From NCBI GenBank assembly GCA_035541085.1, contig DATKNX010000191.1, positions 1-51,316 on the forward strand: a DNA stretch of 51,316 nucleotides, in the 5' to 3' direction. The notes below the pieces were generated by a model. It had not been told where the DNA came from, made no database searches, and was given only the letters and a program-made list of their open reading frames with translations. This document shows positions 2,710 through 43,214 of this stretch, piece by piece. The translations under genes were made by a program, and so were the position numbers. This DNA comes from Gemmatimonadales bacterium (lineage in GTDB: Bacteria; Gemmatimonadota; Gemmatimonadetes; Gemmatimonadales; JACORV01). The first letter of the stretch is position 1. Each line of letters opens with the position of its first letter.

Positions 2710-3784
2710 ATGACCCATACCGTCACCCAGCCCGACCCGGCCCTCATCGCCGCCATCGTGGACATGGCGGCCGACGCCATCATCTGCGTGGGCCCGGACG
2801 ACCGCATCCTCTCCTGCAACCGCGGCGCCGAGAGGATGTTCGGCTGGTCGGCCCAGGACCTGGTGGGCCAGCCGTTCGCGATGCTGCTGCCGGAGGAGGA
2901 GCTGGCACGGGGCGAGATCGACTGGATGCGGCGCACCACGATCGCCGAGGGCGCCATCCGCGACTACGAGACGCGGCGGAAGACGAAGGACGGCCGCATC
3001 ATCGAGGTCAGCCTCACCCGCACGGTCGTGCACGACGAGTCGGGCAACCTCATCGGCTACTCGGCGATCCTCCGCGACATCTCGGATCGCAAGCGCATCG
3101 AGCGGCAGCTGCTGACGGCCGAGCGGCTGGCCACGGCCGGCCAGGTCGCCGCGGGGGTCGCGCACGAGATCGGCGCCCCGCTCACCGCCATCTCGGTGGC
3201 GGTGGACCACATGCTGCAGTCGCGCTGCAACTTCTGCGGCGGCGGCGAGGAGATGCAGGTGCTGCTGTCGCAGACCGACCGCATCGCCAAGCTCGCCCGC
3301 CGGCTCGTGAACCTCGCCAAGCCCGCGGGCCTGGTGTTCACGGCCACGAGCGCGAACGAAGTGGTGGAGCAGGCCACGAGCCTGGTCCAGCCGCAGCTCG
3401 GCCGCCATCGCATCCGGCTCGAGCTGGCGCTGGCGCCCGACCTGCCGGCCATCCACGCCGACGAGGCGCAGCTCCAGCAGGTGTTGATCAACCTGTTCCT
3501 GAACGCGCAGCGGGCCATGGCCGAGACGGGCGGGCTGCTGCGCGTCGAGACCGGCGCGCCGGCCCGGGACATGGTGGACATCACGGTGTCCGACAACGGC
3601 CCCGGCATCGCCGAGGCGGACCTGCCGCACATCTTCACGCCGTTCTTCTCGCGCTCCGGCGGCACGGGGCTCGGCCTTTCGCTCGCGGCGCAGATCGTGA
3701 AGTCGCACCGCGGCACCATCGACGTCGCCTCGCGCGTGGGCCAGGGCGCGACGTTCACCATCCGGATTCCCGCATCGGTGAGCC

Positions 3785-3792
<8 letters not shown>
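2710..3792 (+). CDS. Soluble PAS-domain sensor histidine kinase (NtrB-like)
   Basis: N-terminal PAS-like region with no obvious TM segment. H-box HEIGAPLTAI, N-box LINLFLNAQRA, G-boxes DNGPGI and GTGLGLS. Confidence 0.9.
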
Positions 3793-5233
<1,441 letters not shown>

Positions 5234-6211: not shown

Positions 6212-6763
6212 CTAGAGGGCCGACAGCTCCGCGAGCGTCTCGGCGCCGTAGAAGAGCCGGATGTACTTCGCCTGCGTCGGCGTGAGCCGGCGCACGGCCC
6301 ACGCGAGGTGCACGAAGTGCGGCTCGACCGGGGGCCGGAGCGGGTGCATGCCCAGCTCCTCCGGCAGGTGGCTGCCCTTGCGCGCGTTGCAGGTCGAGCA
6401 GGCGGTGACGACGTTCGTCCACGCGTTGGTGCCGCCGCGCGAGAGCGGGACCAGGTGGTCGCGCGTGAGGCACTCGCGCGGCCGGAGCTGGTGCTGCGTG
6501 CGCGTGCAGAACTGGCAGCGGTAGCCGTCGCGGGCGAACAGGAAGGTGTTCGTCACCTGGCGCCGGAAGCGCCGCGGCACGTGCACGAACTTGACCAGGC
6601 GGATCACCGCGGGACGCGGCACGGCCAGGTGCTCGGAGCGCGCCAGGCGGCCGGCGTCCGACTCGACGATCTCCGCCTTCCCGTCGATGACGAGCCGCAG
6701 CGCCCGCCGCACCGGTACCATGGTGAGCGGCTCGAACGACGCGTTCAACGCGAGGCATCGCAC
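6212..6763 (-). CDS. HNH endonuclease family protein
   Basis: MRCLALNASFEPL... N-terminus typical of the small stand-alone HNH family. Cys pairs CQFC and CSTCN flank the DHLVPLSRGGTNAWTNVVTAC HNH core. Confidence 0.85.
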   Translation of the reverse strand: MRCLALNASFEPLTMVPVRRALRLVIDGKAEIVESDAGRLARSEHLAVPRPAVIRLVKFVHVPRRFRRQVTNTFLFARDGYRCQFCTRTQHQLRPRECLTRDHLVPLSRGGTNAWTNVVTACSTCNARKGSHLPEELGMHPLRPPVEPHFVHLAWAVRRLTPTQAKYIRLFYGAETLAELSAL

Positions 6764-15773: not shown

Positions 15774-15875
15774 TGAGGCGATGACGTGACGGGGTGATGA
15801 AGTGATGAGGGCGGTCTGCAGACCCTCCGCATCACCTCATCACATCATCACCGTCCATCACTTCATCACCTCCCC
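15764..15875. repeat. 112-nt imperfect palindrome built from GTGATGA / TCATCAC heptamers
   Basis: Outer arms GGGGAGGTGATGA (15764-76) and TCATCACCTCCCC (15863-75) are perfect reverse complements. GTGATGA occurs at 15770, 15794 and 15802; TCATCAC occurs at 15837, 15845 and 15863. The centre is the palindrome GGTCTGCAGACC (15813-24). It contains the stop codons and last codons of both convergent genes. Confidence 0.75.
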
Positions 15876-30219: not shown

Positions 30220-33701
<3,482 letters not shown>

Positions 33702-39304: not shown

Positions 39305-40332
39305 GAGTCCTCGGCATCGAGACGTCGTGCGACGAGACCTCGGCGGCCGTCGTCGCCGGCGATGGGGATGGTGCGCGCGTCGCCTCGTGCGTCATCCTCT
39401 CGCAGGACGTGCACGCCGTATACCGCGGCGTGGTGCCCGAGCTCGCCTCTCGCGCCCACCTCGTCGCCATCGGTCCGGTCGTCACGCACGCGCTCGTGGG
39501 CGCGGGCATCGGACTCGGCGACGTGGACCTCATCGCCGTCACCGAGGGCCCGGGCCTGATCGGCGCCCTGCTGGTCGGCGTCAGCTACGCGAAGGGCCTC
39601 GGCCTCGCGGCCGGACGGCCCCTGGTGGGCGTACACCACCTGGAGGCGCACCTCTTCGGCACCGCGCTCGACGATCCGGCCGCGCTGCCGCCCTTCGTCG
39701 GCCTCATCGTCTCGGGCGGGCACTCGCTGCTGCTCGACGTGCCGGCGTGGGGCGACTACCGCCTGCTCGGCGAGACGCGCGACGACGCCGTGGGCGAGGC
39801 CTTCGACAAGGTGGCGGCGCTGCTCGAGTTGGGTTACCCGGGCGGTCCCGCCGTCGAGAAGGCCGCGCGCGAGGGCGATCCCGCCCGCCACCGGTTCCCG
39901 CGGCCGATGCTCAACGCGCGGCAGCGCCCGGGCGACGGCGACTACTACGATCTGTCGATGAGCGGCCTCAAGACGGCGATGATCCACGCCGTGAAGGCCT
40001 CGACGGACCTCGCGGCCGACCGCCCGCACCTCGCGCGCGGATTCCAGGACGCGGTCATCGAGGTGCTCGTGACCAAGACGCTCCGCGCGGTGGAGCAGTG
40101 CGGCCGGCGGCGCGTGGTCCTCGGCGGCGGCGTGGCCTGCAATCGGGCGCTGCGCGAGGCGATGGCCGCCGCGCTGCTCGCGCGGGGCGCGACACTCCAC
40201 GCCCCGTCGCCCCGCCTCTCGACCGACAACGCCGCCATGATCGCCCGTGCCGGGCTGTTCCGCGCCGCCGAGGCCGGCCGCCCGGTGGACGCCGCGGCAC
40301 GACTCCCATTCCCCGGCCTGGTGCGCGCATGA
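39301..40332 (+). CDS. tsaD: tRNA N6-adenosine threonylcarbamoyltransferase
   Basis: VLGIETSCDETS, GPGLIGALLVG, HHLEAH. GTGA overlap with the previous gene. Confidence 0.95.
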   Translation: MRVLGIETSCDETSAAVVAGDGDGARVASCVILSQDVHAVYRGVVPELASRAHLVAIGPVVTHALVGAGIGLGDVDLIAVTEGPGLIGALLVGVSYAKGLGLAAGRPLVGVHHLEAHLFGTALDDPAALPPFVGLIVSGGHSLLLDVPAWGDYRLLGETRDDAVGEAFDKVAALLELGYPGGPAVEKAAREGDPARHRFPRPMLNARQRPGDGDYYDLSMSGLKTAMIHAVKASTDLAADRPHLARGFQDAVIEVLVTKTLRAVEQCGRRRVVLGGGVACNRALREAMAAALLARGATLHAPSPRLSTDNAAMIARAGLFRAAEAGRPVDAAARLPFPGLVRA

Positions 40333-41156
40333 GCGTCTACCCGCTGCTCTTCCACTTCGGTGGCTTCACCCTCACCGGCTACGGCATCATGATGATGCTC
40401 GGATTCCTCGTGGCCGGCTGGATCTACGCGCGCGAGCTCAAGCGCCGCTCTCTCGAGCCGGCCGTGGCCTGGGACACCGTCGTCATCGCCGTCGTGGGCG
40501 GGCTCGCCGGCTCCAAGCTGTACTTCGCCATCTCGGTCGGCCGCATCGCCGCCGCCTTCTCCCGCGGCGGCCTCGTCTGGTACGGCGGCCTCGCCGGCGG
40601 CACGGCCGCGGTCCTGGCGTACATGTGGCTCAAGCGGCTGCCGATCCGCGCGTGCCTCGACGCCGTGGCCCCCGCGATGGTCGTGGGCTACTTCCTCGGC
40701 CGGGTCGGCTGCTTCATGGTCAACGACGACTACGGGCTGCCCTCGCGGCTGCCCTGGGCCGTGGCCTTTCCCCAGGGCTCGCCGCCCTCGACCGCGCGCA
40801 TCCTGAGCGAGCAGTTCCACGCGACGATCCCCGCGGGCATCGCGCCCGACCAGGTGCTCACCGTCCACCCCACGCAGCTCTACGAGATCGCGCTCAGCTT
40901 CGTCGTGTTCTGGCTGCTGTGGCGGCTGCGCGAGCACCGGCACGCCGCCGGCTGGCTGTTCGCGCTCTACCTCGTGCTCTCCAGCCTCGAGCGCATCATC
41001 GTCGAGATCTTCCGCGCCAAGGACGACCGGATCTTCGGCGCCATCACCGTCGCACAGGTCTGGAGCGCCGGTCTCGTCGCGGTGGGGCTGCTGTTGATGT
41101 GGCGGCTCGCGCGCGCGAAGGAACAAGCGCCTCCGGCGCCCACAGCGGCCGCATGA
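40329..41156 (+). CDS. lgt: Phosphatidylglycerol:prolipoprotein diacylglyceryl transferase
   Basis: Polytopic membrane protein with YGIMMMLGF, GRVGCFMVND(D)YG, HPTQLYE. ATGA overlap with tsaD. Confidence 0.93.
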   Translation: MSVYPLLFHFGGFTLTGYGIMMMLGFLVAGWIYARELKRRSLEPAVAWDTVVIAVVGGLAGSKLYFAISVGRIAAAFSRGGLVWYGGLAGGTAAVLAYMWLKRLPIRACLDAVAPAMVVGYFLGRVGCFMVNDDYGLPSRLPWAVAFPQGSPPSTARILSEQFHATIPAGIAPDQVLTVHPTQLYEIALSFVVFWLLWRLREHRHAAGWLFALYLVLSSLERIIVEIFRAKDDRIFGAITVAQVWSAGLVAVGLLLMWRLARAKEQAPPAPTAAA

Positions 41157-41209
41157 GCCGTCGAATTTCTATACACTTGTTTAGATGTTTGACAGTGATT
41201 TCCTAGACA

Positions 41210-41400
41210 GTTGGCTTGCCGCCAACGGGGTAATGGCAGGCTAACGTGTTCAGCTACAACGTCTTGAGTTGAAAGTAGCTCTTGGGCACGGCCATTGCCA
41301 AGGATAGGGTCGAAGCTGCAGCCGGTGGCGATGGAGTTCCTGAGGGGGGCGTCGCCTCGGTGTCCATGATAGCCTGCCAATTGGCAGGCTATCGTGTTTT
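41210..41400 (+). ncRNA. Candidate structured RNA or attenuator-like element (unclassified)
   Basis: Lower-GC, non-coding stretch between convergent genes. Hairpin 1 (41210-20 with 41235-45) is 11 bp including two G-U pairs that exist only on the plus strand. Inner hairpins are AGCTAC/GTAGCT (41252-80) and CTTGG/CCAAG (41281-302). It ends in the terminator at 41368-41400. TTGACA lies at 41189-94. Not matched to any RNA family I know. Confidence 0.3.
41368..41400 (+). terminator. Rho-independent terminator
   Basis: GATAGCCTGCC-aatt-GGCAGGCTATC (perfect 11 bp) followed by GTGTTTT. The T-run is on the plus strand only and abuts the stop codon of the convergent gene. Confidence 0.7.
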
Positions 41401-43214
41401 CAGGGGGTTCCTTCATCCGCGGCGCCCGCGGCCTGCTCCACCATACGCGCCGCGCGCCACCGCACCACCCACCACACGATCGCCACCACCAGGCTCGCCG
41501 CGATGAGTCCCTGCACCGCCAGTGACTGCACGGTCGGGTAGACGCCGAAGAACTCGCTGCGCGGCGCGCCGCGCACCAGCGTCGAGGGGATCAGCGCGCC
41601 TTCCTGCAGCTCCTTCACGCCGCTCCCCGCGAAGACGAACGACATGAAGAAGAGGGTCGCGCCCGTCACGGCGAAGAACGGCCGCAACGGGATCCGGATG
41701 CCGAAGCGCTCGATGCCGACGTAGACGACGAGCAGCACGACGGCGCCGGACGCGAGCCCCAGCGTGATCGCGGCCGCGCCGCCGGCGCCGCCGCTCACGT
41801 AGAGCGCCTTGTAGAAGAGCACCGTCTCGAAACCCTCGCGGTAGACGGCGAGGAACGCGACGGACGCGAGCGCGAGGCTGCGGCCGCTGGCCGCGGCGCG
41901 CTCGACCTTCTCGCGCAGGAACCGCTGCCAGACCTCGACCTCCACCTTCGACAGCAGCCAGTACGACACGTAGAACAGGACCGCCGACGCGACCAGCATC
42001 ACGCCGCCCTCGAGCGCTTCGCGCTGCGCCGCCCCGCCCTCGAGCAGCCACTCCAGCAGCCCCGCCGTCGCGAGGCTGGCGAGGAGCGCGAGCCCCACGC
42101 CCCAGCGCACCGAGCGGCGCTGCTCCGTCGAGCCGCTGCGCAGCACCACGGCCATGATGGCCGCCACGATGAGGATCGCCTCGAACCCCTCGCGCACGAT
42201 GAGGAGGAAGCTCTCCACCAGGAAGCCCCAGGCCGTGCGGCTCCCGCCGAGGACCGCTTCGGCGGAATCCACCGTGCTCGCGAGCACGCCGTAGTCCGCC
42301 CCGGCGTCGGCCGCGCCCGTCTCCACCGCCTCGCGCAGCGCGGCGAAGCGACGCTCCGCGCGCGAGGCCAGCGACGCGTCGGCGATCCGGACCTTGCCCT
42401 CGACCGCCTCGAACGAGAGGTAGGCGTCGAGCACCCGGCTCGCCGCCGTCCGGTCGCCCTCCCGCGCCCCGCTCATCGCCTGCGCGAGCTGGGCGCGGAC
42501 CGTCGCGAACGCCACCACGTCGCCGCCCGCCGCGCGCCGCGCGAGACTGTCCGAGAGACTCAGCACCCAGGCGACGGCGTCCCACCGGCCGTCGTGCGAG
42601 AGCACGGCGCCGAACGGCGCCATCGCCGTGCCGGGTACGCCGTAGGTGATCCGGCGGTAGTAGTCGAGCGGCGCGACGTGCGCGGCGCCGGCCTCCACCA
42701 GGTTCGCGGGCGGCGGATTCAGCCCGACGGCCGCCGGGCCGTCGCCGCGTCCCGCCGTTCCGTGACACTGCGCGCAACGCGTCGCGTAGATGCGGCCACC
42801 CGTGGCGAGCGACGGCTCGCGCTGCGGCCCTTCGTCCAGCGCCGAGCCCAGGGCCGCGCCGAGGCCGTGCTCGATCGCCGCGGCGCGCCCGGCCACCGAG
42901 TCCGGCGGCGCCTGATCCGCCAGCATCCTGGCCATCGCGCCCAGGTCCCGCAGCGCCGATTCCGCGAGGTTGGCCGGCAGCGAGCGCGCGGCGCGCAACG
43001 CCTCGCTCACGAACAGCTTCGCCTCGTCGGCCTCCTCCGGCTGCGTGAAGGCCCCGTGATCCCAGGCGAGAGCGTACTCCTGGGCGGCGAGGTGTACCGT
43101 GGCGACGACCCTGCGGGCGGCGTCGCGCGCCGCTGGCGTGAGCGGTTCGGCCTGGAGCGCACTGGCTCGGGCGATGGCGATGGCGAAGACGACGGCGAGG
43201 CCTGGGCGGCCCAT
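41400..43214 (-). CDS. Cytochrome c / FTR1-family iron permease fusion
   Basis: Signal peptide, a helical N-terminal domain, and one haem c site (CAQCHG with downstream GVPGTAMAPF). The polytopic FTR1 half carries two REGxE motifs (REGFEAILIV, REGFETVLFY). Confidence 0.9.
   Translation of the reverse strand: MGRPGLAVVFAIAIARASALQAEPLTPAARDAARRVVATVHLAAQEYALAWDHGAFTQPEEADEAKLFVSEALRAARSLPANLAESALRDLGAMARMLADQAPPDSVAGRAAAIEHGLGAALGSALDEGPQREPSLATGGRIYATRCAQCHGTAGRGDGPAAVGLNPPPANLVEAGAAHVAPLDYYRRITYGVPGTAMAPFGAVLSHDGRWDAVAWVLSLSDSLARRAAGGDVVAFATVRAQLAQAMSGAREGDRTAASRVLDAYLSFEAVEGKVRIADASLASRAERRFAALREAVETGAADAGADYGVLASTVDSAEAVLGGSRTAWGFLVESFLLIVREGFEAILIVAAIMAVVLRSGSTEQRRSVRWGVGLALLASLATAGLLEWLLEGGAAQREALEGGVMLVASAVLFYVSYWLLSKVEVEVWQRFLREKVERAAASGRSLALASVAFLAVYREGFETVLFYKALYVSGGAGGAAAITLGLASGAVVLLVVYVGIERFGIRIPLRPFFAVTGATLFFMSFVFAGSGVKELQEGALIPSTLVRGAPRSEFFGVYPTVQSLAVQGLIAASLVVAIVWWVVRWRAARMVEQAAGAADEGTP

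What the first reader, a model, noticed from the sequence alone, without database searches (positions are those of the whole stretch)
41157..41400. Structured, lower-GC 240-nt spacer after lgt with duplicated hairpins that can pair in mutually exclusive ways
**Seen in the sequence.**
- This is the only extended non-coding, visibly AT-richer stretch in the window.
- It contains TTGACA (41189-94).
- Four segments are defined. Segment 1 is GTTGGCTTGCC (41210-20) and segment 2 is GGCAGGCTAAC (41235-45). Segment 3 is GATAGCCTGCC (41368-78) and segment 4 is GGCAGGCTATC (41383-93).
- Segments 2 and 4, with their tails (..AAT(T)GGCAGGCTA(A/T)CGTGTT..), are near-identical.
- Pairing 1:2 gives an 11-bp hairpin whose two G-U pairs exist only on the plus strand.
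- Pairing 3:4 is a perfect terminator followed by GTGTTTT.
- Pairing 2:3 is also complementary (GGCAGGCTA with TAGCCTGCC). It would enclose a 120-nt domain containing at least two further hairpins and would abolish the terminator.

**Inference.** Three readings are possible:
- tandem terminators for the long lgt operon;
- an independent sRNA;
- an attenuator whose read-through would run antisense into the convergent cytochrome c/FTR1 iron permease gene, whose stop codon touches the T-tract.

I could not match it to any RNA family.
Basis: partly seen in the sequence, partly recalled or inferred. Interest (0 to 1): 0.65.

Follow-up and report, generated by a model that had tools for sequence, protein, structure and literature searches.

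The report
Sigma-54-driven small RNA gene after lgt

Summary
The interpretation changes once 34 related loci are compared.

**Conserved in relatives**
- Two AT-rich dyads, YGTC-N9-GACA (41159-41194).
- A TAAC...CAA-N4-TTG block (41242-41266).
- An invariant GGCAC-N6-TGC (41285-41298), which is a sigma-54 -24/-12 promoter.
- A 91-nt RNA (about 41310-41400) made of a stem-loop with an invariant 21-mer and a covarying terminator.
- Fixed spacing of 92-94 nt between dyad and promoter, although the DNA in between is almost unconstrained.

**Not conserved**
- Pairings 1:2 and 2:3 are no better than shuffled controls (47% and 51% paired).
- Pairing 3:4 is 100% paired, with compensatory changes.

**Wider context**
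- More distant Gemmatimonadales carry a sister RNA at the same position. It has a canonical TGGCAC-N5-TTGC promoter and one or two strongly covarying modules.
- That sister RNA appears as a discrete contig in 7 of 8 metatranscriptomes.
- Nothing matches Rfam, and I found no literature on it.

**Verdict:** a new sigma-54/enhancer-dependent sRNA family. Its target or partner is unknown, and the window's own RNA has no transcript data.

The parts
41159..41175 (+). Upstream activating dyad 1: CGTC-N9-TACA. Relatives have YGTC-N9-GACA. It starts 3 nt after the lgt stop codon.
   Evidence: Conserved half-sites in alignments of 23 to 33 related spacers. Mean information of the two-dyad block is 1.16 bit per column, against 0.37 for the DNA that follows.
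41178..41194 (+). Upstream activating dyad 2: TGTT-N9-GACA. It is the likely binding site of an enhancer-binding protein.
   Evidence: The GACA half-site lies 92-94 nt upstream of the -24 GG in 23 of 23 relatives. The same YGTC-N9-GACR dyad lies 81-95 nt upstream of the promoter in 7 of the 12 single-module sister loci that have a sigma-54 match, and at 160 nt in an eighth. Background is 0.02 per 170 nt.
41195..41241 (+). Length-constrained but sequence-unconstrained promoter spacer. It also holds a third half-site, TAGACAG (41204-10), found only in the window's near clade.
   Evidence: Information content is 0.37 bit per column. Pairing 1:2 is not conserved. The region is not structured in relatives: mean z = -0.21, with only the window and L102 below -2.
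41242..41266 (+). Conserved TAAC...CAA-N4-TTG block. AA 41243-44, A 41258 and T 41265 are invariant. It is a candidate site for a DNA-bending protein with an IHF-like core.
   Evidence: Invariant columns in A3. The distance to the -24 GG is fixed: 21 of 23 identical and 2 shorter by one. A comparable TAAG...CTTA block sits upstream of the promoter in the module-type sister loci. The IHF consensus WATCARXXXXTTR is taken from PMC3045617, and only its core is matched.
41285..41298 (+). Sigma-54 type promoter GGCAC-GGCCAT-TGC, with GG at -25/-24 and GC at -13/-12.
   Evidence: GGCAC-N6-TGC is invariant in all 34 relatives that have enough upstream sequence, 46-51 nt upstream of the invariant 21-mer. 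It is the only GGCAY-N5-TTGC in the 51-kb window on either strand. It ranks first of 102,598 positions with an 18-position matrix built from Salmonella sites. 22 of 25 sister loci have TGGCA(C/T)-N5-(T/C)TGC at a fixed distance from their RNA, and one of them starts with C instead of T. None of 43 lgt loci without the RNA has such a site within 500 nt.
41310..41400 (+). Predicted small RNA of about 91 nt. The 5' end is inferred from the promoter and could be off by about 3 nt.
   Evidence: The covariance model of 24 distinct homologues hits 41310-41399 at 103 bits. There are no transcript data for this type.
41322..41360 (+). Stem-loop 1: CCGG-U-GGCGAU, then the apical 18 nt GGAGUUCCUGAGGGGGGC, then GUCGCC-UCGG. 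The invariant 21-mer GAGUUCCUGAGGGGGGCGUCG is at 41334-54.
   Evidence: The lower stem is 98.6% paired, with two pairs changed on both sides. The upper GUUCCU/GGGGGC pairing is predicted but never varies, so it is untested. The 21-mer retrieved 24 metagenome contigs, one copy each. Every contig with enough flanking sequence had the copy next to lgt.
41365..41400 (+). Stem-loop 2, the intrinsic terminator: CAUGAUAGCCUGCC, loop AAUU, GGCAGGCUAUCGUG, then UUUU.
   Evidence: Pairing is 100% in 23 relatives, with two compensatory pairs. In the 24-sequence alignment three pairs change on both sides, including the loop-closing pair, which is GC in 10 and AU in 9.
41400..43214 (-). Convergent cytochrome c / FTR1 (EfeU-like) iron permease gene. 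Its stop codon abuts the T run. It is context, not shown to be part of the element.
   Evidence: Pfam FTR1 plus Cytochrome_CBB3 and NCBIfam EfeU/Ftr1. It is convergent in most relatives but absent downstream in L002, L008/L085, L012 and L098, which keep the RNA.
40329..41156 (+). lgt (prolipoprotein diacylglyceryl transferase), the invariant upstream neighbour on the same strand.
   Evidence: Pfam LGT. tblastn finds lgt directly upstream of the element in every locus with enough sequence.

Best explanation
The spacer is a self-contained gene for a trans-acting small RNA that is transcribed by sigma-54 RNA polymerase.

**Proposed mechanism**
1. An NtrC-family enhancer-binding protein binds the two YGTC-N9-GACA dyads (41159-94), probably under the control of a sensor kinase.
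2. The DNA between the dyads and the promoter loops, possibly helped by a bending protein at the TAAC...CAA-N4-TTG block. This explains why the length of that DNA is fixed while its sequence is free.
3. The activator opens the closed sigma-54 complex at GGCAC-N6-TGC (41285-98).
4. Transcription starts near 41310 and stops at hairpin 3:4 plus UUUU (41365-41400).
5. The product is an RNA of about 91 nt with a 12-nt variable leader, a stem-loop carrying an invariant G-rich 21-mer, and the terminator.
6. The same terminator probably also ends read-through from lgt.

**How firmly each part is supported**
- Shown by comparison: the conserved parts, their spacing, the RNA helices, the strand and position specificity, and expression of the sister RNA.
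- Inferred: sigma-54 dependence, the start site, the identity of the activator, and the action of the RNA.

**What the RNA does**
My best guess is that the invariant GAGUUCCUGAGGGGGG element is the functional face.
- Somewhat more likely, it pairs with C/U-rich sites in mRNAs.
- Alternatively, it binds and titrates a protein.

I found no evidence that they have a function.
For: **Position and copy number**
- The element lies immediately 3' of lgt, on the same strand, in all 34 related loci with enough sequence. These are 10 species-representative genomes and 24 metagenome contigs, each with one copy.

**Promoter**
- GGCAC-N6-TGC is invariant and sits 46-51 nt upstream of the RNA's invariant core.
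- These are the positions sigma-54 recognises: GG at -24 and TGC at -12 (PMC3844500).
- It is the only such match in the window and the top hit of a Salmonella-derived matrix over 18 positions.
- The dyads lie 92-94 nt upstream in 23 of 23 relatives, although the DNA in between carries only 0.2-0.4 bit per column.
- Enhancers typically lie about 70-150 bp upstream of the promoter (PMC3844500).
- The known GlrR site, TGTC-N10-GACA, differs from these dyads by one spacer base (PMC3045617).
- The window encodes a REC-AAA+(GAFTGA)-HTH_8 enhancer-binding protein and a PAS histidine kinase (2710-5233). The organism therefore has the activator machinery that works only with sigma-54.

**RNA structure**
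- The model is 98.6% paired, with 5 pairs and 17 cells changed on both sides. None of 500 shuffles reached this, and slid controls gave 33-56% pairing.

**Sister loci**
- 25 more distant lgt loci carry an RNA at the same position.
- 22 of them have a near-canonical TGGCA(C/T)-N5-(T/C)TGC 61-67 nt upstream of the first module.
- 7 of 12 single-module loci with a sigma-54 match have the same YGTC-N9-GACR dyad 81-95 nt upstream of the promoter.
- They share the GCCUGCC-N4-GGCAGGC terminator core and a CU(G/C)AGGGGG(G)CG motif.
- In L045, whole contigs from 7 of 8 metatranscriptome runs lie only within 4989-5226. The predicted start is about 4993 and the terminator ends about 5244. There is no cover on lgt's 3' end, the dyads, the promoter or the downstream DNA.
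- None of 43 lgt loci lacking the RNA has a sigma-54-like match within 500 nt downstream.
Against: - There are no transcript data for the window-type RNA. No RNA run holds it, so its start, end and expression are predictions.
- The window's promoter has G rather than T at -26. A single GGCAY-N5-TTGC match in 51 kb is not significant on its own (0.64 expected).
- With only 16 matrix positions the site ranks 13th. The case rests on conservation.
- rpoN itself was not seen in the window or in the loci.
- The only enhancer-binding protein in the window is 36 kb away. Nothing links it to these dyads, and no such gene lies within the flanks of the related loci.
- The window's own dyads each deviate from the consensus by one base (TACA and TGTT).
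- The covariance model of the sister module does not detect the window's stem-loop 1. Common descent of the two RNA bodies is therefore unproven, and transferring the expression evidence is an argument from context.
- One contig (X29, a run of uncertain RNA/DNA status) carries 9 extra unaligned letters at its 5' end. By my reading these would reach about the -12 region.
- Contigs give no strand and only rough ends.
- No target or partner was identified.
Confidence: 0.74

Rival explanations
1. Transcription attenuator or alternative-structure switch. Segment 2 would pair with either segment 1 or segment 3, so that 2:3 pairing abolishes terminator 3:4 and lets transcription run antisense into the FTR1 gene.
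For: In the window itself all three pairings are possible, and the 17-nt repeat of the terminator's 3' arm is too long to be chance. The whole spacer folds with z = -4.8.
Against: - Pairing 2:3 is 50.7% paired in 23 relatives against 50.6% in shuffles, with no compensatory change.
- Pairing 1:2 is 46.9% against 47.3%.
- Segment 2 is altered even in the closest relative, L081, giving 7 of 9 pairs.
- Segments 1 and 2 lie upstream of the conserved -24/-12 promoter, so they are outside the conserved RNA.
- A 9-bp long-range helix would have to compete with a local hairpin of 11-14 bp with a 4-nt loop.
- In the minimum-free-energy fold, 1:2 and 3:4 form together.
Confidence: 0.04
2. A longer sRNA of about 200 nt, made from a sigma-70 promoter that uses TTGACA (41189-94) as its -35 box and includes the 1:2 hairpin and the GGCAC...TGC block as RNA structure.
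For: There is a perfect TTGACA hexamer, and the plus strand of the whole spacer folds well.
Against: - The promoter scan found no sigma-70 site.
- No TAnnnT lies 16-18 nt downstream of TTGACA in any relative.
- TTGACA is one half of a dyad repeated twice, which is typical of a protein-binding site.
- The 41195-41283 stretch keeps its length but not its sequence or structure.
- GGCA/UGCC shows no covariation. Its outer pair is lost in L098 and L101 while GGCAC and TGC stay invariant.
- In sister locus L045 the RNA contigs of six runs begin at 5006-5039, downstream of the -24/-12 block (4968-4981). A seventh aligns from 4989 with nine further unaligned letters.
Confidence: 0.06
3. Nothing more than the 3' UTR and terminator of the lgt operon, possibly shared with the convergent FTR1 gene, with no separate RNA product.
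For: - The element always follows lgt on the same strand.
- In L005 and L006 the first dyad overlaps the lgt stop codon, and no conserved terminator separates lgt from hairpin 3:4.
- Hairpin 3:4 therefore very likely does end lgt transcripts.
Against: - A plain terminator does not explain an invariant 21-mer in a separate stem-loop, invariant GGCAC-N6-TGC at a fixed distance, or conserved dyads at fixed spacing.
- In L045 the RNA cover is confined to the predicted sRNA, with none on lgt's 3' end or the promoter region.
- On the minus strand the hairpin is followed by CAUGGACACC, with no U run, so it is a poor terminator for FTR1.
Confidence: 0.08
4. A cis-antisense regulator of the FTR1 iron permease. 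The sRNA and a read-through FTR1 3' UTR overlap and affect each other's stability.
For: - FTR1 is convergent, with its stop codon touching the T run, in the window and in most relatives.
- The hairpin lacks a U run on the minus strand, so FTR1 transcripts may run into the sRNA gene.
Against: - The RNA is kept in L002, L008/L085, L012 and L098, where no FTR1 lies downstream.
- In sister loci L045 and L071 the downstream sequence looks co-directional by eye; no gene was called there.
- Antisense action would not need an invariant loop sequence.
Confidence: 0.07
5. A 12-codon small ORF (ATG 41331 to TGA 41369, MEFLRGASPRCP) is the conserved feature.
For: The ORF exists in the window and in its close relatives.
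Against: - The ATG is CTG in 6 of 24 distinct homologues. There the change turns a G-U pair into G-C, which is the behaviour of an RNA helix.
- The stop codon position varies between relatives.
Confidence: 0.01

Closest known systems
GlmY/GlmZ of Enterobacteriaceae (sigma-54 plus GlrR/QseF plus IHF-dependent sRNAs)
   Same: - It is a stand-alone sRNA gene with a -24/-12 promoter.
- Dyad activator sites lie roughly 100 bp upstream. GlrR binds TGTC-N10-GACA; here the dyad is YGTC-N9-GACA.
- A conserved block with an IHF-like core lies between the sites and the promoter.
- A Rho-independent terminator follows (PMC3045617).
- The genomic neighbour, lgt, is a cell-envelope gene.
   Different: - There is no sequence or structure match to any Rfam family, GlmY and GlmZ included.
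- The dyad spacer is one base shorter.
- There are two dyads rather than three.
- No activator gene lies next to it.
- The phylum is different, and the function is unknown.
Other sigma-54-dependent sRNAs: Qrr1-4 (LuxO, Vibrio) and, recalled from memory, CrcZ/CrcY (CbrB, Pseudomonas) and NrsZ (NtrC)
   Same: The regulatory logic is the same: a two-component signal acts through an enhancer-binding protein and sigma-54 to produce a small RNA. Relevant papers appeared in searches (PMC10162802, PMC6296734); I read only their titles and abstracts. The one or two repeated modules of the sister type recall the repeated protein-binding motifs of CrcZ.
   Different: There is no sequence or structural similarity (Rfam negative). 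The activator sites differ. No partner such as Hfq, Crc or target mRNAs has been identified.
3'-UTR-embedded sRNAs with their own promoter, such as DapZ and MicL (named from my own knowledge; not checked against a paper)
   Same: The sRNA gene sits at the 3' end of a protein-coding gene on the same strand and probably shares its terminator with that gene. In L005 and L006 its control region overlaps the upstream gene's stop codon.
   Different: The promoter lies in the spacer rather than inside the coding sequence, and it is of the sigma-54 type with an enhancer.
Module-type lgt-linked RNA of other Gemmatimonadales (found here; loci L033, L035, L045-50, L055-62, L065, L067, L070, L071, L074-78)
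   Same: - It occupies the same position and strand after lgt.
- It has a sigma-54 promoter at a fixed distance.
- Many single-module loci carry the same YGTC-N9-GACR dyad.
- It has a similar TAAS...CTTR block.
- It shares the terminator core GCCUGCC-N4-GGCAGGC.
- It shares the motif CU(G/C)AGGGGG(G)CG next to the 3' arm of the enclosing stem.
   Different: - Its body is one or two 75-nt modules: an 11-bp P1, an internal loop with AAGAA on the 5' side and AGGGGG on the 3' side, P2 GRGU:ACUC, and a P3 hairpin. 13 of 23 pairs covary.
- It also has a 5' hairpin.
- The window's stem-loop 1 lacks P2 and P3 and is not detected by the module's covariance model.
- The two-module loci use a different dyad, TGCCGGAAC...GTTCCGGCA.

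Membership tests
Sigma-54 (RpoN)-dependent promoter | GG at -24 and (T)GC at -12, with exactly 10 bases between GG and GC | tested here: met
   GGCAC-GGCCAT-TGC at 41285-98. These positions are invariant in 34 of 34 relatives. The defining positions are as stated in PMC3844500.
Sigma-54 (RpoN)-dependent promoter | An upstream enhancer (binding sites for a bacterial enhancer-binding protein), typically 70-150 bp upstream | tested here: met
   At the sequence level only. Two conserved dyads, YGTC-N9-GACA, lie 92-94 nt (3' half-site of dyad 2) upstream of GG in 23 of 23 relatives. Protein binding was not tested.
Sigma-54 (RpoN)-dependent promoter | The organism encodes sigma-54 and at least one enhancer-binding protein | tested here: inconclusive
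   An enhancer-binding protein with GAFTGA and the Sigma54_activat domain is encoded at 3785-5233. rpoN itself is not in the window or the loci, and the rest of the genome is not available.
Sigma-54 (RpoN)-dependent promoter | The transcript starts about 12 nt downstream of the -12 GC, and expression depends on rpoN | not testable with these tools
   No RNA run holds the window-type RNA. In sister locus L045 the RNA contigs start at or after 4989, against a predicted +1 of about 4993. This is consistent but imprecise.
Trans-acting bacterial sRNA gene | A discrete short transcript with its own promoter and a Rho-independent terminator, and no co-transcribed downstream gene | tested here: inconclusive
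   The promoter and terminator are conserved and the downstream gene is convergent. A discrete RNA was seen only for the sister type.
Trans-acting bacterial sRNA gene | Conserved secondary structure supported by compensatory changes | tested here: met
   98.6% of cells are paired and 5 pairs change on both sides. None of 500 shuffles reached this.
Transcription attenuator or riboswitch-like switch | Mutually exclusive terminator and anti-terminator pairings conserved among relatives | tested here: not met
   The anti-terminator pairing 2:3 is 50.7% paired against 50.6% in shuffles, with no covariation. Pairing 1:2 is 46.9% against 47.3%.
Transcription attenuator or riboswitch-like switch | A regulated gene downstream on the same strand | tested here: not met
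   The next gene is convergent in the window and in most relatives.
GlmY/GlmZ and all other Rfam 15 families | A match to the family's covariance model at its gathering score | tested here: not met
   No hit in the window at gathering thresholds. Only noise at E <= 10 in 41000-41600. No hit in 8 sister loci at E <= 0.1.
Dispersed repeat (REP- or MITE-like) element | Many copies per genome with no strand or position preference | tested here: not met
   The segment motif occurs only inside the spacer. The covariance model finds one full-length copy per locus, always 3' of lgt on its strand. Whole genomes could not be scanned.

The most novel reading that the evidence does not exclude
The lgt-linked RNAs of Gemmatimonadales are a new class of signal-controlled RNA whose conserved purine-rich element is a specific docking site for a protein or small ligand rather than a base-pairing seed. 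That element is AAGAA/AGGGGG, held in an internal loop in the module type and reduced to GAGUUCCUGAGGGGGG in the window. Present in one or two copies per RNA, it would titrate a global regulator in response to a sigma-54/two-component signal. That would make it a Gemmatimonadota counterpart of the CsrB, CrcZ or GlmY type with an unrelated fold, possibly tied to envelope lipoprotein or iron homeostasis.
Probability: 0.25. Interest if true: 0.75.

Novelty: new member of a known kind. Interest (0 to 1): 0.55.

Why it matters
- **No sRNA is on record for this phylum.** Gemmatimonadota are abundant in soils, wetlands and activated sludge. I found no described regulatory RNA for them in Rfam 15 or in the searchable literature.
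- **The control region can be read from sequence alone.** This locus shows activator dyads, a candidate bending-protein site, a -24/-12 promoter, the RNA and its terminator. It is conserved across at least 34 lineages for the window type and 25 species-level genomes for the sister type.
- **A sister RNA is visibly expressed** in environmental metatranscriptomes.
- **It gives clear experimental handles.** The dyad can be used to look for the cognate enhancer-binding protein and its regulon. The invariant 21-mer can be used to look for targets or partners. There are also two covariance models (R1 and R2, session objects built from alignments A2 and A4) that could seed new Rfam families.
- **It illustrates a general point.** An internally repetitive, well-folding spacer can be mostly promoter DNA. 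Fixed length with free sequence pointed to a DNA-level constraint rather than RNA structure.

Tried and rejected
- **Rfam.** Searched at gathering thresholds and at permissive thresholds on the window and on sister loci. Nothing was found.
- **tRNA and tmRNA.** None found.
- **Simple promoter and terminator scan.** Nothing was flagged, not even hairpin 3:4.
- **Salmonella-derived sigma-54 matrix.** The site is the top hit with 18 positions but only 13th with 16. The matrix is AT-biased and unsuited to a 73% GC genome, so I treat this as weak support only.
- **Dyad search in the window.** No exact GTC-N9-GACAG anywhere. With one mismatch allowed, TGTC-N9-GACA gives only the spacer's own dyad 2 plus 5 GC-rich matches that look like chance, so no regulon could be read from 51 kb.
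- **Homology between the window stem-loop and the sister module.** The covariance model did not detect it, even with filters off.
- **Transcript evidence for the window type.** No RNA run holds it, and soil and mud metatranscriptomes gave only spurious short matches.
- **Target search.** RNA-duplex energy of the conserved region against both strands of the window returned only the antisense self-match and long imperfect GC-rich duplexes inside coding regions. This was uninformative.
- **rpoN.** A search for the RpoN-box motif in all held DNA found nothing.
- **Naming the enhancer-binding protein.** NCBIfam gave only generic AtoC/NtrC/ZraR-like hits, all below their cut-offs.
- **A conserved lgt terminator hairpin in the variable region.** Not found.
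- **Small ORF.** Rejected because the start codon is not conserved.
Full report
**1. The observation**

The window is a 73.5% GC contig from an uncultured Gemmatimonadales bacterium found in wetland and peat metagenomes. lgt runs from 40329 to 41156 on the plus strand, and its start overlaps the tsaD stop codon. A cytochrome c/FTR1 permease gene converges on it from 43214 to 41400.
- TTGACA;
- the four segments;
- the 17-nt direct repeat (94% identical);
- the 3:4 and 2:3 inverted repeats.

The spacer is the lowest-GC stretch of the window, at 0.535 overall and 0.47 at its minimum. Three shallower dips exist elsewhere. The plus strand folds with z = -4.8. Rfam has no match.

**2. Relatives**

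A search with the lgt protein returned 80 Gemmatimonadota loci, one per species. The spacer is recognisably conserved in ten of them (L002-L009, L012, L040), whose lgt is 66-86% identical at the protein level. Their 3' halves are about 81-91% identical in nucleotides.

The invariant 21-mer GAGTTCCTGAGGGGGGCGTCG then retrieved 24 metagenome contigs, each with one copy. In every locus with enough sequence the element sits directly 3' of lgt on the same strand. FTR1 is usually convergent downstream, but it is missing in L002, L008/L085, L012 and L098, which still keep the element.

**3. Anatomy from the alignments**

Conservation falls into blocks:
- **Two AT-rich dyads, YGTC-N9-GACA (41159-75 and 41178-94).** They carry 1.16 bit per column.
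- **A nearly unconstrained stretch (41195-41241).** It carries 0.37 bit per column and contains segment 1 and most of segment 2.
- **A TAAC...CAA-N4-TTG block (41242-66).**
- **A second unconstrained stretch (41269-83).** It carries 0.23 bit per column.
- **GGCAC-N6-TGC (41285-98).** It is invariant in all 34 relatives with enough upstream sequence.
- **A variable stretch of about 23 nt.**
- **Two almost invariant hairpins (41322-60 and 41365-96) followed by UUUU.**

The distance from the second dyad to GGCAC is 92-94 nt in 23 of 23 sequences, even though the intervening sequence is free. The distance from the CAA block to GGCAC is identical in 21 of 23 and one base shorter in the other two. 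Fixed length with free sequence points to a constraint on DNA geometry, not on RNA structure.

**4. Identification of the promoter**

GG and TGC separated in this way are the -24 and -12 elements recognised by sigma-54, and enhancers usually lie about 70-150 bp upstream (PMC3844500). The glmY and glmZ sRNA genes show the same layout: three GlrR sites (TGTC-N10-GACA) more than 100 bp upstream, IHF sites (WATCARXXXXTTR), and a sigma-54 promoter (PMC3045617).

Evidence within the window:
- It holds exactly one GGCAY-N5-TTGC on either strand, at this site. With 0.64 expected by chance, that is not significant alone.
- A matrix built from 27 Salmonella sites ranks the site first of 102,598 positions over 18 columns, but 13th over 16.
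- The window encodes a PAS histidine kinase and a REC-AAA+(GAFTGA)-HTH_8 enhancer-binding protein at 2710-5233. The organism therefore has the activator machinery that works only with sigma-54. rpoN itself was not in the DNA I could read.

No sigma-70 -10 element follows TTGACA in the window or in any relative. With C 41298 at -12, the start is predicted at about 41310, giving a 91-nt RNA. The covariance model of 24 distinct homologues matches 41310-41399 at 103 bits.

**5. RNA structure**

RNAalifold and explicit pair counts support two elements:
- **Stem-loop 1.** CCGG-U-GGCGAU, an apical 18 nt, then GUCGCC-UCGG.
- **Stem-loop 2.** A terminator of 11 to 14 bp.

Overall 98.6% of cells are paired and 5 pairs change on both sides. 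None of 500 shuffles reached this, and slid controls gave 33-56% pairing. The terminator has true compensatory changes:
- GAUAGCC/GGCUAUC becomes GCUAGCC/GGCUAGC in L082;
- GCCUGCC/GGCAGGC becomes GCCCGCC/GGCGGGC in L091;
- the loop-closing pair alternates between GC and AU.

The apical GUUCCU/GGGGGC pairing is predicted but never varies, so it remains untested. A 12-codon ORF in stem-loop 1 loses its ATG in 6 of 24 homologues, through a change that instead strengthens the helix.

**6.

I tested all three on the 23-sequence spacer alignment:

| Pairing | Cells paired | Shuffled controls | Compensatory changes |
|---|---|---|---|
| 1:2 | 46.9% | 47.3% | no more than in shuffles |
| 2:3 | 50.7% | 50.6% | none |
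| 3:4 | 100% | 98.9% | two pairs |

- The nearest relative, L081, has TGCAGCCTAAC in place of segment 2, which gives 7 of 9 pairs for 2:3.
- The 62 nt holding hairpin 1:2 are not unusually structured in relatives. The mean z is -0.21, and only the window and L102 fall below -2.

Hairpin 1:2 and the duplicated arm are therefore real but lineage-specific, and they lie in promoter DNA upstream of the conserved RNA.

**7. A wider family**

The window-type model gave weak hits just after lgt in more distant loci. Inspection showed a second RNA type in 25 loci whose lgt is about 49-55% identical to the window's.

*Control region*
- It begins with an AT-rich region holding dyads.
- A TAAG...CTTA block follows.
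- 22 of 25 loci have a near-canonical TGGCA(C/T)-N5-(T/C)TGC, 61-67 nt upstream of the first module.

*RNA body*
- It starts with a 5' hairpin.
- One or two 75-nt modules follow. Each has an 11-bp P1, an internal loop (AAGAA on the 5' side, AGGGGG on the 3' side), P2 GRGU:ACUC and a P3 hairpin.
- The module is 98.9% paired, with 13 of 23 pairs and 78 cells changed on both sides.
- It ends in a terminator with the same GCCUGCC-N4-GGCAGGC core as the window's.

*Dyads and controls*
- Of the 12 single-module loci with a sigma-54 match, 7 carry the same YGTC-N9-GACR dyad 81-95 nt upstream of the promoter, and an eighth has one at 160 nt. Background is 0.02 per 170 nt.
- Two-module loci use a different dyad.
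- None of the 43 lgt loci without either RNA has a sigma-54-like site within 500 nt downstream.

*Limits*
- Rfam has no match for these loci either.
- The module model finds every module (74-98 bits), always on lgt's strand. It does not detect the window's stem-loop 1.
- The two types therefore share position, control architecture, terminator core and a CU(G/C)AGGGGG(G)CG motif. Common descent of the RNA bodies is not proven.

**8. Expression**

No public RNA run holds the window-type sequence. The module-type RNA of L045, an activated-sludge genome, is present in many metatranscriptomes.

I laid contigs from eight of those runs on the locus. In seven of them, a whole contig of 151-226 nt lies entirely within 4989-5226. 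The predicted start is about 4993 and the terminator ends about 5244. There is no cover on lgt's last 100 nt, the dyads, the promoter or the downstream DNA.

Caveats:
- contigs have no strand and only rough ends;
- one contig carries nine unaligned letters at its 5' end, which by my reading would reach about the -12 region.

The picture fits a discrete and relatively abundant RNA that begins at the sigma-54 promoter.

**9. What it does**

This is inference. The region is a signal-controlled sRNA gene. An NtrC-family activator bound at the dyads, probably with a DNA-bending protein at the TAAC...CAA-N4-TTG block, switches on sigma-54 transcription of a 91-nt RNA.

The invariant 21-mer is the obvious functional face. 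It would act by pairing with C/U-rich mRNA sites or by binding a protein. A duplex scan of the 51-kb window was uninformative. Hairpin 3:4 probably also terminates lgt, because no conserved terminator lies between them. An antisense relation with FTR1 is possible, but it is not required, since the RNA persists where FTR1 is absent.

**10. Novelty**

The kind is known: sigma-54-dependent sRNAs such as GlmY/GlmZ, Qrr and CrcZ. This family is not. It is absent from Rfam 15, and three literature searches found nothing on Gemmatimonadota sRNAs. I rate it a new member of a known kind, of moderate interest. The structured module of the sister type is the part most likely to hold something really new.

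Noticed in passing
L033, L035, L045-L050, L055-L062, L065, L067, L070, L071, L074-L078 (about 200-450 nt after the lgt stop; for example L045:4993-5244): A second, larger lgt-linked RNA with one or two tandem 75-nt modules. Each module has an invariant purine-rich internal loop (AAGAA on the 5' side, AGGGGG on the 3' side), and 13 of 23 pairs covary. It has a canonical sigma-54 promoter and no Rfam match, and it is seen as a discrete contig in 7 of 8 metatranscriptomes.
   Followed up: yes
window 2710-5233 (+): A PAS-HisKA-HATPase sensor kinase gene (2710-3792) overlaps the start of a REC/sigma-54-activator(GAFTGA)/HTH_8 response regulator gene (3785-5233). This is an NtrC/AtoC/ZraR-like two-component pair scoring below all NCBIfam equivalog cut-offs. 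It is the only enhancer-binding protein in the window and lies 36 kb from the sRNA promoter.
   Followed up: partly
window 15775-15875: A long imperfect palindrome built from repeated GTGATGA / TCATCAC units around a central GGTCTGCAGACC. It lies between the end of tyrS (15773, plus strand) and a convergent ORF. It is a lower-GC dip (0.56) and may be a bidirectional terminator or a repeat element.
   Followed up: no
window 32040-32300: A second lower-GC dip (0.55) at a gene junction. It contains a short palindrome, GTTCGAATTCGA. It was not examined further.
   Followed up: no
L005:2612-2640 and L006:4811-4840: In these relatives the lgt stop codon is the TGA inside the TTGACA half-site of the first dyad. 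The sRNA control region therefore overlaps the end of the lgt coding sequence.
   Followed up: partly
L051:5010-5092; L068:4870; L044:5289: Possible degenerate or truncated variants. In L051 the module's 5' arm and GAAGAAG run straight into a GCCUGCC/GGCAGGC terminator. L068 and L044 have an isolated CU(C/G)AGGGGGCG without the rest of the module.
   Followed up: no
two-module loci, for example L062:4850-4900 and L047:2190-2225: These loci use a different activator-site dyad, TGCCGGAAC-N(about 9)-GTTCCGGCA, in place of YGTC-N9-GACR. This suggests that the cognate DNA-binding specificity changed between clades.
   Followed up: partly
window 41041-41083 (+), inside lgt: A weak match to Rfam CRISPR-DR20 (22.5 bits against a gathering score of 42, E = 0.034). 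It is a GC-rich hairpin within coding sequence and there is no repeat array, so I judge it to be chance.
   Followed up: partly
window 6212-6763 (-): A stand-alone HNH endonuclease ORF lies between an unannotated ORF and the argininosuccinate lyase and synthase genes.
   Followed up: no
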